From the NCBI GenBank assembly GCA_037927135.1, contig JAXSPP010000008.1:1-64000 (forward strand): a DNA stretch of 64,000 nt. Direction: 5' to 3'. Positions 9,001 to 12,000 of the stretch are shown here, one piece after another (positions within the stretch are counted from its first letter, which is position 1; each line of letters begins with the position of its first letter). Source of the DNA: Candidatus Pampinifervens sinense. GTDB lineage: Bacteria > Aquificota > Aquificia > Aquificales > Aquificaceae. Made by a program: the position numbers.

Positions 9001-12000
9001 GTCTGTTGAAGTCTTCTTCCAAGAGATACTCAACCTGCATACCAAAAGTGTAGAAGGTTTTGAAGCTCTTATGAGAATTTATGCAGATGGCAGTTTTCTA
9101 CCTGCGGGAGATTTTGTACAAAGGGCGGAGGAGATGGGGGTAATACGTGAGCTGGATAGGGTAATGGCGGAGAAAGTCTTTGAAAGGGTGTCTACCTTGA
9201 ATACCAAAGATTTTTACCTCTTTATAAACCTCTCTCCACAAAACCTTACGGAGGATTATATGATAATGGATAATAGATACAGTAAGAAACCATGGCATAA
9301 GGCCAGGCATGGTAGTATTTGAAATAACGGAAAGGGAAGCCATACAGGATATAGTGGAGGTTGGCAATTTTATAAAAGGCATGAAAGAATTTGGCTTTAA
9401 GTTTGCCATTGATGACTTTGGTTCAGGCTATGCAAGCTTCCTCTATCTTAAATACCTGCAGATAGACTTTCTCAAGATTGAAGGTGAGTTTATAAAAAGT
9501 ATAAAGAGTTCCTTTGTGGATAGAAGCTTTGTCAAAAGCATTGTGGATATTGCCAAGGCACTAGGCATTAGGACCATAGCGGAGCACGTAGAGGATGAAG
9601 AAACGCTTAATATACTCCTTGAGCTTGGAGTGGACTATGCACAGGGCTATTACATTGGCAGGCCCGCACCCATGGAAGAAAAGATCAAGGCTTACTTCTC
9701 CAAAGGAACAGACCAATAATTTGAAGGACTAAGTTTACAAAGAAGACCATCAGGGTTGTGTATATGGTAGCCTTATACCAAAAATCCATGGGGTAAACCC
9801 TAAGTAGCATGTCTTCATCCCTGAACCTCCAAGAGTAGGGGTCAAAGAAAAGGTTATGAAAGGCAACAAAGAGCCACTCATAGTTTATCAAAGAAGCAAA
9901 AAACACAAACAGGGCAAAAAGTTCTAAAAGCAATGCCCCAAAGAAAAGCACCCTTCCCATCTCTTTTAAATTTTTCAATCTAAGGAAAAGCAAAAGCCAA
10001 ACTGGAAGGCCAATGTATAAAAAGCCAAAGAAAAGACTCAAAAGCCTTTTTACATCCTCCATGTGCTTTATCTCCCTGTAGTTGAAAAGCCCAGAGTTTT
10101 TAAAGTCTTCCATACCTTTATCCGATAGCACAGACCTTAGCCCAAGCTTTGCTATGTTTAGCCTTTGTTCATAGGGCATGGGGTCTGGGGGGAGGACTAC
10201 CCTTGGATAAAGGAAGTCTACAAAGGCCTCTGTAAAGCTAAGCCTAACACAGAGCAAGGTCAAAAGCAAGGGGAAGAGGAGGATGAGGAGGATTTTTATG
10301 GGTTTCATACCAATTAATACCCTCTTATGTTAGTAGGTCCAGCATGGCAGGCAATACAGGACTTTTGATTTCCAACTACTTTTACCAAGCCAAAGCTTTC
10401 CGCTATTTTTTGATGCTTGGCGTGTATGCTCTCCAAGGGCTTGAACTTCCTTACCTGTGGCACGTTTATGCCTTGGTGGCATTGGTAGCAGGTCAGCATG
10501 GCTTCTTTCCAGAGGCTAATAGCCTTCTCTTGATTCTTCTCCTCCAGAGCCTTTGGAAGCTCGTTATATAGGATGTTGTTCCTGTGTCTTACCACAGCCT
10601 TTAGGTCTTCGCTCCACTGGGCCACCATGGGTCCTGCCAAGGCCATGTTCTTCCCGCAGGCAGAAAGCCCTGTGGGGCTTTTGATAAGCCTTAGGGCTGA
10701 ATCAAACTCACCCTTTTCTATATAGCCCCTTAGGGCCACAAAGGAGAAGAAGGTCTTGTAGGCTCCAGCCTTAAAGTTTAGCCTAATATCCGCCAAGTAT
10801 CTTCCCGCTTGCATCACCTGTTCCTTGTTGGCACCTCCCACCACCAGTATGTTTTTGCCATCCTTTTGGACAAGCTTTATAGTGGGCTTTTCAAAGCTAA
10901 GGCCAAGCTCTTTTACTATGCTGTTGTTTGTTCCAACCACTATAAGGTTTTGGTAGCTAAGCTCCTTTAGCCTTTGGTCGCTTACCAGAAGCTCGGGCAT
11001 CCTTGACTGCTTTACATCCTCCACATTAAAGCCTATGTCTTCCGTCCACTGGCCAAGGTAGTAGGCTATCCTGCCCGCAAGGGCCACTACTTCTGGGTCC
11101 TCTTTTGAGCCATAAACTATGAGAGTGTTGGGTATGGTGGCATCCTTCACAAGGGCTGGCGTGCCAGTCCATACCTCACCGTATTTAACATAAGGAAAAA
11201 GCCTGTCTGCAAAGGGTGGGTCAATGACAGGCTGGGAGAAGGCTATGCCAGCTACGGCGCTTAACAGCATAAGCTTCCTCATCCTTCACCTCCTTTTTTT
11301 ATCGGGGTGAGGGGACTTGAACCCCTGACCTTCGGCTCCCGAAGCCGACGCTCTGCCACCTGAGCCACACCCCGTTTAATTTAAAATTTTATCCCTCAGG
11401 AACTTTTCTACCTTATCCCTCCACTTTTTGGCCACAAAAAGCACCTCCTCTTGGTCAAGGGTCTTTAACTCTCCCTTCTCCATTAGCACTTTACCTTTAC
11501 ATATGACCGTGTCTATATCGGAGGACTTGGCAGAGTAGACAAACTGGGCTATGGGGTCATAAAGGGGCTGAAGGTGGGGCCTGTTTGTATCTACAAGGAT
11601 AAGGTCCGCCTCGTAGCCTATCTCTATCTTGCCCGCCTTTATGCCTACGGCTCTAAAGCCCTCTTCCGTGGCTATCCTCAAAGCAGTCCTTGCATCCATG
11701 GCCTTTGCGTTAAGGCTTGATCCCTTTTGAAGCTTAACCATTAGGCTTAGCTCTTCCAGCATGTCCAAGTTATCGTTGGAGGCAGGCCCGTCGGTACCAA
11801 GGCACACATGAATGCCTCTCTTTACATAATCGCTTATGGGAGCTATGCCAGAGGCAAGCTTTAGGTTGCTTTCAGGGCAGTGAAGCACCTTTGCACCGCT
11901 TTCCTTTATCATTTCCCTCTCTTCCTCTGTGGTCCAAACCACATGGGCCATAAGGAGCCTGTGGCTAAGCAGTCCAAGGCTATGAAGGTGTTCCACTGGC

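What a model noticed while it worked through the whole genome (the two positions that open the first line are those of the whole stretch)
9685..10269. Lipoprotein intramolecular transacylase (Lit) with intact active site in a diderm lineage that also has Lnt
This outer-membrane-bearing thermophile encodes a Lit homologue with all six conserved active-site residues, beside a complete Lgt-Lsp-Lnt path and LolA. Lit is known from Firmicutes that lack Lnt, so Aquificaceae are predicted to make lyso-form as well as triacyl lipoproteins, or to use Lit in a new role.
Evidence so far: Call 32: Pfam Lit E 1.8e-20. Sequence shows H-x3-V and F-x3-H-x3-F-x4-W, matching B. cereus H85/V89/F149/H153/F157/W162 (PMC8275575, passages). 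Call 215: homologue in 25 of 31 family genomes, 10 of 12 genera. Lnt-like CN_hydrolase (C1:321251-322492, E-K-C triad in sequence), Lgt, Lsp and LolA in calls 13, 16, 30.
(Added by a program. Inside this text positions count along the whole contig: contig position 1 is position 1 of the stretch shown here. "Call 12" and the like, gene names such as g00115 and contig names such as C1 are that model's own, and its searches are not shown. The text may have been shortened before it was handed on; [...] marks where a part breaks off. The agent that wrote the report below was given it as the finding of a first reader that could run no searches.)

Follow-up and report, generated by a model that had tools for sequence, protein, structure and literature searches.

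The report
Second lipoprotein-acylating enzyme in hot-spring bacteria
This outer-membrane bacterium carries an intact gene for Lit, an enzyme so far tested only in Gram-positive bacteria, as well as the usual Lnt gene, so it probably finishes its lipid-anchored proteins in two ways, perhaps because ether bonds in its membrane lipids starve the usual enzyme.

Summary
Confirmed; the gene is 9685-10308 (-), 207 aa. It is a Lit-family protein: Pfam Lit and TIGR01906 above cut-off, predicted fold matches B. cereus Lit (Z 19.7, 2.4 A, 205 residues), both catalytic histidines and the aromatic cage kept. It is found in 70 of 90 family genomes and is under purifying selection. The genome also has Lgt, Lsp, LolA and a true Lnt with no sign of decay. 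A review says Lit has no Gram-negative or high-GC homologues; yet the family is also in Chloroflexota (36 of 81; lit next to lgt in 5 of 36), Micrococcaceae and DPANN archaea. The Aquificales copies form one clade grouping with Thermoflexus, far from the tested Bacillota enzymes. Best reading (0.6): an active Lit competes with Lnt, giving lyso- and triacyl lipoproteins. Bolder reading (0.3): sn-1 ether lipids limit Lnt, and Lit makes an ester-free anchor; Lit is in 38 of 41 genomes with an ether-synthase marker plus Lnt, against 15 of 56 with Lnt alone (not independent). No activity, expression or lipid data. Public annotation already labels these proteins TIGR01906. Interest 0.55.

The parts
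9685..10308 (-). lit-family gene, 207 aa, four membrane helices with an extracytoplasmic cap
   Evidence: model pLDDT 97.6; match to 7b0o Z 19.7, rmsd 2.4 A, 205 aligned; four main hydrophobic stretches, the third given as two overlapping runs
10048..10065 (-). first active-site motif, H82 to K87 (B. cereus H85, D88, V89, K90)
   Evidence: H, D and V in 38 of 38 Aquificales sequences examined
9823..9870 (-). second active-site motif, F147 to F162 (B. cereus F149, F152, H153, F157, W162, F164)
   Evidence: all six in 38 of 38 Aquificales sequences examined
10314..11282 (-). upstream neighbour, 5 bases away: 322-aa protein with a signal-peptide-like start, weak BcsB-like match and two CxxCH motifs; possibly co-transcribed, but not a constant partner
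   Evidence: directly upstream in genera g1, g4 (most loci) and g9, other neighbours in g2, g3, g11 and family f2
11302..11374 (-). tRNA-Pro(CGG) just upstream of the two genes on the same strand
9309..9719 (+). convergent EAL-domain fragment whose end overlaps the last 35 bases of lit; not part of the system

Best explanation
The protein is a working lipoprotein intramolecular transacylase in the inner membrane. Lgt adds a glyceryl lipid to the lipobox cysteine and Lsp removes the signal peptide. Then two enzymes compete for the free amino group. Lnt adds a third chain taken from the sn-1 ester of a phospholipid. Lit moves the lipoprotein's own sn-2 ester chain onto the amine, with H151 as base and H82 holding the carbonyl. 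The cell should therefore make both triacyl and lyso-form lipoproteins, both N-acylated and so fit for Lol transport. The gene probably came once into the Aquificaceae ancestor from a Chloroflexota-like donor. Shown: family, predicted fold, residues, selection, co-presence of the pathway genes. Inferred: activity, expression, products, Lol handling, donor lineage.
For: Fold: 7b0o is the only chain of 48,161 with Z of 8 or more (19.7; next 7.6); the six Lit chains rank first in Foldseek, though only at E about 1e-3. The residues whose mutation abolishes B. cereus activity (H85, H153, F157, K90, L59; PMC8275575 section 9) are all matched. dN/dS 0.13-0.18 against six same-genus copies. One of 73 family matches has an internal stop. 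Substrates exist: 29 ORFs fit my lipobox pattern, about 25 plausible by eye. In 5 of 36 Lit-bearing Chloroflexota genomes lit lies within about 1.2 kb downstream of an lgt-like gene on the same strand (coordinates), and the Listeria plasmid copy sits beside lgt, so non-Bacillota members are tied to lipoproteins too. Lit complements lnt loss in E. coli, so LolCDE accepts lyso forms (PMC11784454, passages). Lit co-expressed with a competing N-acetylation path gives mixed chemotypes in B. subtilis (PMC12345273, passages). Lnt shows no decay: triad intact in 14 of 14; dN/dS 0.09-0.20 in a Lit-bearing genus, 0.06-0.10 in a Lit-lacking genus.
Against: Only 18% identity to the nearest tested enzyme, with long branches between the Aquificales clade and Bacillota; no member of the nearer clades is known to me to be tested. 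N159, which holds the water beside H85, is proline in 31 of 38. No lipoprotein gene lies next to lit in the Aquificales loci I labelled; the neighbours are changing housekeeping genes. The 5 lgt-linked cases are not in the clade shown nearest to Aquificales (two of them, G189 and G197, were in the tree). Lnt alone suffices in relatives: three closed genomes of genera g5 and g10 lack Lit and 29 of 35 genomes of family f2 lack it.
Confidence: 0.6

Rival explanations
1. A real Lit that is silent in normal growth and switched on by copper or another stress, like plasmid lit2; the everyday lipoproteins are triacylated by Lnt.
For: lit2 is copper-induced (PMC8689077 passages; PMC8275575 section 12); the Listeria and Enterococcus plasmid copies lie among copper genes; one distant relative, P0184, is fused to a heavy-metal-binding domain.
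Against: The neighbours I identified in Aquificales loci are housekeeping genes, none a copper gene or copper regulator (not all neighbours were named). The gene abuts or overlaps upstream housekeeping genes, is single-copy, and is close to genome G+C (0.41 against 0.44).
Confidence: 0.17
2. The Aquificales clade keeps the Lit chemistry but acts on another substrate, for example an O-to-N acyl shift on the lineage's aminopentanetetrol phospholipid or another amino-lipid.
For: Long stem branch (1.0 changes per site); clade-specific M83, Y143, P157 and W177 in the pocket; these bacteria make an amino-phospholipid (PMC3035279 and PMC4318418, passages); Lnt is already present, so Lit is free to drift.
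Against: M or L at 83 and W at 177 are also the rule in the 102-sequence alignment of nearest relatives, so they are not Aquificales novelties. The whole fold is kept with no added domain. lit-lgt linkage elsewhere in the family.
Confidence: 0.15
3. Lit is the only effective N-acylase here; Lnt has lost or changed its job because the cell lacks phosphatidylethanolamine, its preferred donor.
For: No phosphatidylserine decarboxylase in this 99.96% complete genome; Lnt prefers PE (PMC8689077 section 7); in the B. cereus group, gain of lit went with decay of the competing path; this Lnt is shorter (453 aa, against 512 in E. coli).
Against: Lnt is above cut-off in 80 of 90 family genomes, keeps its triad and is under strong purifying selection in a Lit-bearing genus; Lit-lacking genera carry a similar-scoring Lnt.
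Confidence: 0.08

Closest known systems
Lit of Bacillus cereus (PDB 7B0O/7B0P; PF07314, TIGR01906)
   Same: Predicted fold over 205 residues, histidine dyad, V89/K90/F149/F157/W162, four membrane helices, similar length.
   Different: 18% identity; N159>P, F86>M, F180>W; host has an outer membrane, Lol and a full Lnt; no mammalian host, so TLR2 evasion cannot be the purpose.
Plasmid lit2 of Listeria and Enterococcus
   Same: Same family; also named only TIGR01906 by RefSeq and far below the NF051877 cut-off; works in a host with another default lipoprotein form.
   Different: lit2 is mobile, sits with lgt and copper genes and is copper-induced; this gene is chromosomal among housekeeping genes.
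Untested TIGR01906 proteins of Anaerolineae/Thermoflexus, Micrococcaceae and DPANN archaea
   Same: Nearest relatives (about 25-37% identity); same invariant residues.
   Different: 0 of 36 Lit-bearing Chloroflexota have Lnt above cut-off, so there Lit looks like the Lnt substitute; here both are kept. Lnt status of Micrococcaceae was not testable (only a 1.35 Mb partial record, no Lnt).
Canonical diderm path Lgt-LspA-Lnt-Lol
   Same: Lgt, Lsp, Lnt and LolA above cut-off; two LolC/E-like genes below the TIGR02212 cut-off (290.9 and 215.1 bits against 362).
   Different: A second N-acylase is present; no PE-forming decarboxylase found; a Ger/PlsA-like ether-lipid gene cluster is present.

Membership tests
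Lit (PF07314 / TIGR01906) | Profile score above curated cut-offs | tested here: met
   71.8 against 24; 91.4 against 74.8
Lit (PF07314 / TIGR01906) | Four-helix cone with extracytoplasmic cap, a fold unique to Lit | tested here: met
   Predicted model, Z 19.7, rmsd 2.4 A, 205 residues to 7b0o_A; TM 0.80
Lit (PF07314 / TIGR01906) | Catalytic H85/H153 and conserved V89, F149, F157, W162 | tested here: met
   H82, H151, V86, F147, F155, W160; 38 of 38 Aquificales sequences examined
Lit (NCBIfam NF051877 equivalog) | Score of 400 bits or more | tested here: inconclusive
   28.7 bits. The Listeria plasmid lit2-type gene scores 75.7 and two other Lactobacillales copies 98.5 and 112, so this cut-off excludes Firmicute members too and does not separate function.
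Lit (enzyme) | sn-2 to alpha-amino acyl shift on diacylglyceryl lipoproteins, lyso-form product | not testable with these tools
   Needs an enzyme assay or lipopeptide MS/MS
Lit (as described in reviews) | Confined to low-GC Firmicutes that lack Lnt | tested here: not met
   Lnt present; host named Aquificaceae through close relatives. This is a claim about range (PMC8689077), not a biochemical criterion.
Lit2 copper-resistance element | Linkage to lgt2, a CopY-type regulator and copper genes on a mobile element | tested here: not met
   Neighbours are a dihaem-motif protein, tRNA-Pro, an amidohydrolase and a GGDEF/EAL gene
Lnt (partner gene, C1:321251-322612) | LNT_N membrane domain, nitrilase domain, Glu-Lys-Cys triad, TIGR00546 above cut-off | tested here: met
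Ger/PlsA-like ether-lipid synthase (C3, about 30100-34900) | Two PF01869 domains and a PF09989 domain (the conserved BBD set of PMC13159169) | tested here: met
   720-aa ORF with two PF01869 stretches, 388-aa ORF with PF09989, and a 508-aa ORF without a Pfam hit; activity not tested

The most novel reading that the evidence does not exclude
Aquificaceae keep Lit because their membranes are rich in lipids with an ether at sn-1 and an ester at sn-2. Lnt must cleave an sn-1 ester and cannot use such donors. Lit needs only the sn-2 ester already on the lipoprotein. Its product would be an N-acyl, S-(O-alkyl-glyceryl) cysteine: an anchor held by amide, thioether and ether bonds with no ester left, a lipoprotein form I found in no paper searched and one suited to 70-95 C. 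It would be a natural lyso-type lipoprotein in an outer-membrane bacterium. For: an ether-synthase-like cluster here; Ger is sn-1 specific (PMC13159169, passages); Thermocrinis lipids are diacyl plus 'probably monoester-monoether' (PMC3035279, passages); across 118 genomes of the phylum Lit is in 38 of 41 with the Ger marker and Lnt, 15 of 56 with Lnt only; genera g5 and g10 lack both Lit and the marker. Against: the pattern largely follows family lines; 16 genomes have Lit without the marker; 20 genomes with the marker lack both Lnt and Lit; diacyl lipids also exist; which lipid Lgt transfers is unknown.
Probability: 0.3. Interest if true: 0.8.

Novelty: new variant of a known kind. Interest (0 to 1): 0.55.

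Why it matters
Reviews treat Lit as a Firmicute substitute for Lnt, useful for TLR2 stealth or copper tolerance, and one states it has no Gram-negative or high-GC homologues (PMC8689077, passages). A free-living thermophile with an outer membrane that keeps both enzymes under selection fits neither purpose. It makes an open question posed in PMC8275575 (what does a lyso-lipoprotein do that other forms cannot?) testable away from immunity. It predicts a specific, measurable lipopeptide, and links lipoprotein maturation to bacterial ether lipids. It also offers a thermostable Lit for structures with substrate. The protein itself is a plain member of a known family, already labelled TIGR01906 in databases; the new part is the two-enzyme setting.

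Tried and rejected
Chance or broken ORF: rejected. Start at 10269: rejected. 'Lnt' being a generic nitrilase: rejected. Lnt decaying where Lit is present: not seen (one genus each side, dS often saturated). Mobile or phage origin: no match in 50,697 phage records; G+C unremarkable. Recent transfer from Firmicutes: not supported by two quick trees; the careful search did not finish and no test_one_clade was run. A fixed partner gene: none. Fusions with lipoprotein enzymes among 35 long relatives: none; 33 gave only the Lit domain, one added a weak spurious hit, one had a periplasmic binding domain. Expression: inconclusive; three raw hot-spring RNA runs laid no read on the gene and barely hold this strain, and one contig-only run holds relatives' pieces, which cannot show transcription. 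Promoter and terminator scans were at chance level. Other diderm phyla could not be surveyed: no Lit in the 14 named controls except Lactococcus lactis, none in an E. coli chromosome or six large records of Aeromonas, Halomonas, Fusobacterium, Pseudomonas, Acinetobacter and Shinella (several are partial genomes; a Nonomuraea record was fetched but not searched). This is too small to show absence. A search with a broader profile returned only Chloroflexota-like top rows (120 of 2151 listed). Literature: 'lipoprotein intramolecular' with 'Aquif' 0 papers, with 'Chloroflex' 0, 'DUF1461' 0; searches listed nothing on Lit in diderms. The two primary papers PMC5424246 and PMC7383397 were not read, and Supplementary Fig. 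5 and Table 2 of PMC8275575 (the 788-sequence set and its tree) were not seen; they may include Aquificae.

Full report
THE GENE. The window is contig C8:1-64000 of a 1.55 Mb, 99.96% complete genome. An ORF at 9685-10308 (-) gives 207 aa. It scores 71.8 bits on Pfam Lit (cut-off 24) and 91.4 on TIGR01906 (cut-off 74.8). The best sequence hit among solved structures is 7b0o, E 1.4e-4. A model from a 102-sequence alignment (pLDDT 97.6) matches B. cereus Lit at Z 19.7, rmsd 2.4 A over 205 residues, the only one of 48,161 chains at Z 8 or more. NF051877 (cut-off 400) is missed at 28.7 bits, but the Listeria plasmid lit2-type gene scores only 75.7, so that test says nothing. Close relatives are named Aquificaceae bacterium, Hydrogenobacter sp. 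and Thermocrinis, which places the host.

ACTIVE SITE. PMC8275575 (abstract, passages, sections 9, 24 and part 1 of 12) names H85, V89, F149, H153, F157 and W162 as conserved and shows loss of activity for most H85 and H153 mutants, F157A, K90A and L59N. The query has H82, V86, F147, H151, F155, W160, K87 and L55. In 38 Aquificales sequences (the 30 best-scoring of 73 family matches, two more family copies and six from family f2; so biased to good matches) the six conserved residues, D88, F152 and F164 are kept in all 38; K90 in 32; N159 is never Asn (Pro in 31). dN/dS against six same-genus copies is 0.13-0.18, with dS near saturation.

THE REST OF THE PATHWAY. Lgt, Lsp and LolA are above cut-off; two LolC/E-like genes are below the TIGR02212 cut-off. 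Lnt (C1:321251-322612, 453 aa) scores 262.6 on TIGR00546 (cut-off 132.9), has LNT_N and nitrilase domains and the triad. It is above cut-off in 80 of 90 family genomes. Its dN/dS is 0.09-0.20 among seven genomes of the Lit-bearing genus and 0.06-0.10 among six of a Lit-lacking genus; the closest pairs give 0.086 and 0.087. So Lnt is not decaying. My own lipobox pattern matched 32 ORFs, 29 of at least 70 aa, about 25 plausible. The window also has an LptF/G gene. No phosphatidylserine decarboxylase was found, so Lnt probably uses a donor other than PE.

SPREAD. Lit is in 70 of 90 family genomes, 9 of 12 genera; among genomes at least 90% complete it is in 48 of 58 of the family, 6 of 35 of family f2 and 0 of 25 of f3-f5. 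Three closed genomes of genera g5 and g10 also gave no match to a profile of the query's own relatives (five genomes, no positive control in that call). Neighbours differ by genus and are housekeeping genes.

BEYOND THE PHYLUM. [quoted passage not shown] 1420 clusters at 50% identity match the query. A scan with an alignment of ten outside relatives gave 80 loci, 79 titled Chloroflexota. Lit is in 36 of 81 sampled Chloroflexota genomes; all 36 have Lgt, none has Lnt above cut-off, two have an Lnt-like gene below it (one checked). In five (G189, G197, G213, G223, G229) lit lies within about 1.2 kb downstream of an lgt-like gene on the same strand (coordinates). Members also occur in Arthrobacter and other Actinomycetota and in Woesearchaeota and Aenigmarchaeota. 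Two quick trees (85 rows; 62 rows after dropping 11 long or unplaced and 14 redundant rows and adding 2) give one Aquificales clade (SH-aLRT 100 in the second; 97 with two stray rows in the first). It groups with Thermoflexus and unnamed sequences (95) and lies far from Bacillota. The f2 copies nest inside the family's clade. A single gain from a Chloroflexota-like donor is my inference; no root or constraint test was run. I could not survey other diderm phyla; the few records tested had no Lit. From memory, and checked by no call: the TIGR01906 curator note mentions an Aquifex aeolicus member, some Gammaproteobacteria carry 'DUF1461' proteins, and Micrococcaceae have lnt. If so, neither the diderm occurrence nor Lit with Lnt is unique to this family.

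MECHANISM. By the published mechanism (PMC8689077 passages and section 7) Lnt takes the sn-1 ester chain of a phospholipid, while Lit moves the lipoprotein's own sn-2 chain to the amine. Both act on the product of Lsp, so they compete. Competition of Lit with another N-modifying path gives mixed forms in Bacillus (PMC12345273, passages), and lyso forms pass LolCDE in E. coli (PMC11784454, passages). I put 0.6 on an active Lit giving mixed lyso and triacyl lipoproteins, 0.17 on a stress-induced reserve, 0.15 on another substrate and 0.08 on Lit as the only working N-acylase. None of this is shown by experiment; RNA data were inconclusive.

WHY KEEP BOTH. The genome has a Ger/PlsA-like cluster. 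Ger turns the sn-1 ester into an ether (PMC13159169, passages). Thermocrinis albus has diacyl and 'probably monoester-monoether' lipids (PMC3035279, passages); Aquificae lipids have aminopentanetetrol and inositol heads on diacyl, mixed and diether cores (PMC4318418, passages; PMC5487899, passages). An sn-1 ether is useless to Lnt but leaves the sn-2 ester that Lit needs. Using PF09989 above cut-off as marker over 118 genomes: marker and Lnt, 41 genomes, 38 with Lit; Lnt without marker, 56 genomes, 15 with Lit; marker without Lnt, 20 genomes (18 of them family f5), none with Lit; neither, 1 draft genome, with Lit. Two genomes counted as Lnt-positive have it in pieces below cut-off. These genomes are kin, the pattern rests on a few events, and f5 shows that an ether-capable lineage can lack both enzymes. 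I give this reading 0.3.

WHAT IS KNOWN. No paper joining 'lipoprotein intramolecular' with Aquificae or Chloroflexi was found, nor 'DUF1461'; listings showed nothing on Lit in diderms. PMC11573676, PMC13721041 and PMC12462473 (passages) treat Lit as a monoderm enzyme or name it only in passing. The library lacks most subscription papers, the two primary Lit papers were not read, and the 788-sequence tree of PMC8275575 was not seen.

VERDICT. A real, intact, selected Lit-family gene in a diderm family that also keeps Lnt. The protein is a member of a known family and already labelled in databases; the two-enzyme pathway in an ether-lipid thermophile is a variant I did not find described, with a sharp and cheap test. 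Interest 0.55.

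Noticed in passing
window 10314-11282 (-): 322-aa protein with a signal-peptide-like start, weak BcsB-like match (23.6 bits) and two CxxCH motifs near the C-end; no family name; conserved at 67-87% in several genera, directly upstream of lit.
   Followed up: partly
window 6794-9322 and 9309-9719 (+): MASE3-GGDEF-EAL gene split inside the EAL domain into two ORFs in different frames; the matching part is one open frame in relatives L020, L025 and L028.
   Followed up: partly
L043-L122, e.g. L049:1377-2960: In 74 of 80 Anaerolineae-type loci a family of membrane proteins with a spermidine-synthase-like domain lies within 3 kb of lit (directly upstream in the locus checked), an unexplained tight linkage.
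   Followed up: partly
genomes G131-G149 (families f4, f5 of the phylum): 19 of 19 genomes have the ether-synthase marker but neither Lnt nor Lit: members of a diderm phylum with no Lnt or Lit found; free-amine lipoproteins or another enzyme (Lnb and LnsAB were not searched).
   Followed up: partly
P0184; P0143: A Lit relative fused to a heavy-metal-binding domain (PF00403), and one fused to a periplasmic binding protein.
   Followed up: no
L128:1063-2238; P0018, P0028, P0053 and others: Micrococcaceae-type Lit proteins carry a long low-complexity N-terminal extension of about 100-400 aa.
   Followed up: no
P0248, P0123, P0250, P0032: Lit-family proteins named from Woesearchaeota and Aenigmarchaeota; what they would act on in archaea is open.
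   Followed up: no
L164:1244-3113 (G000 C1:320743-322612): lnt overlaps a downstream CDP-alcohol phosphatidyltransferase gene, a possible link to its lipid donor; the genome has four such transferases and no psd.
   Followed up: partly
L166:522-2003 (G170): A Lit-bearing Chloroflexota genome has a divergent Lnt-like gene (LNT_N plus nitrilase domain) below the TIGR00546 cut-off.
   Followed up: partly
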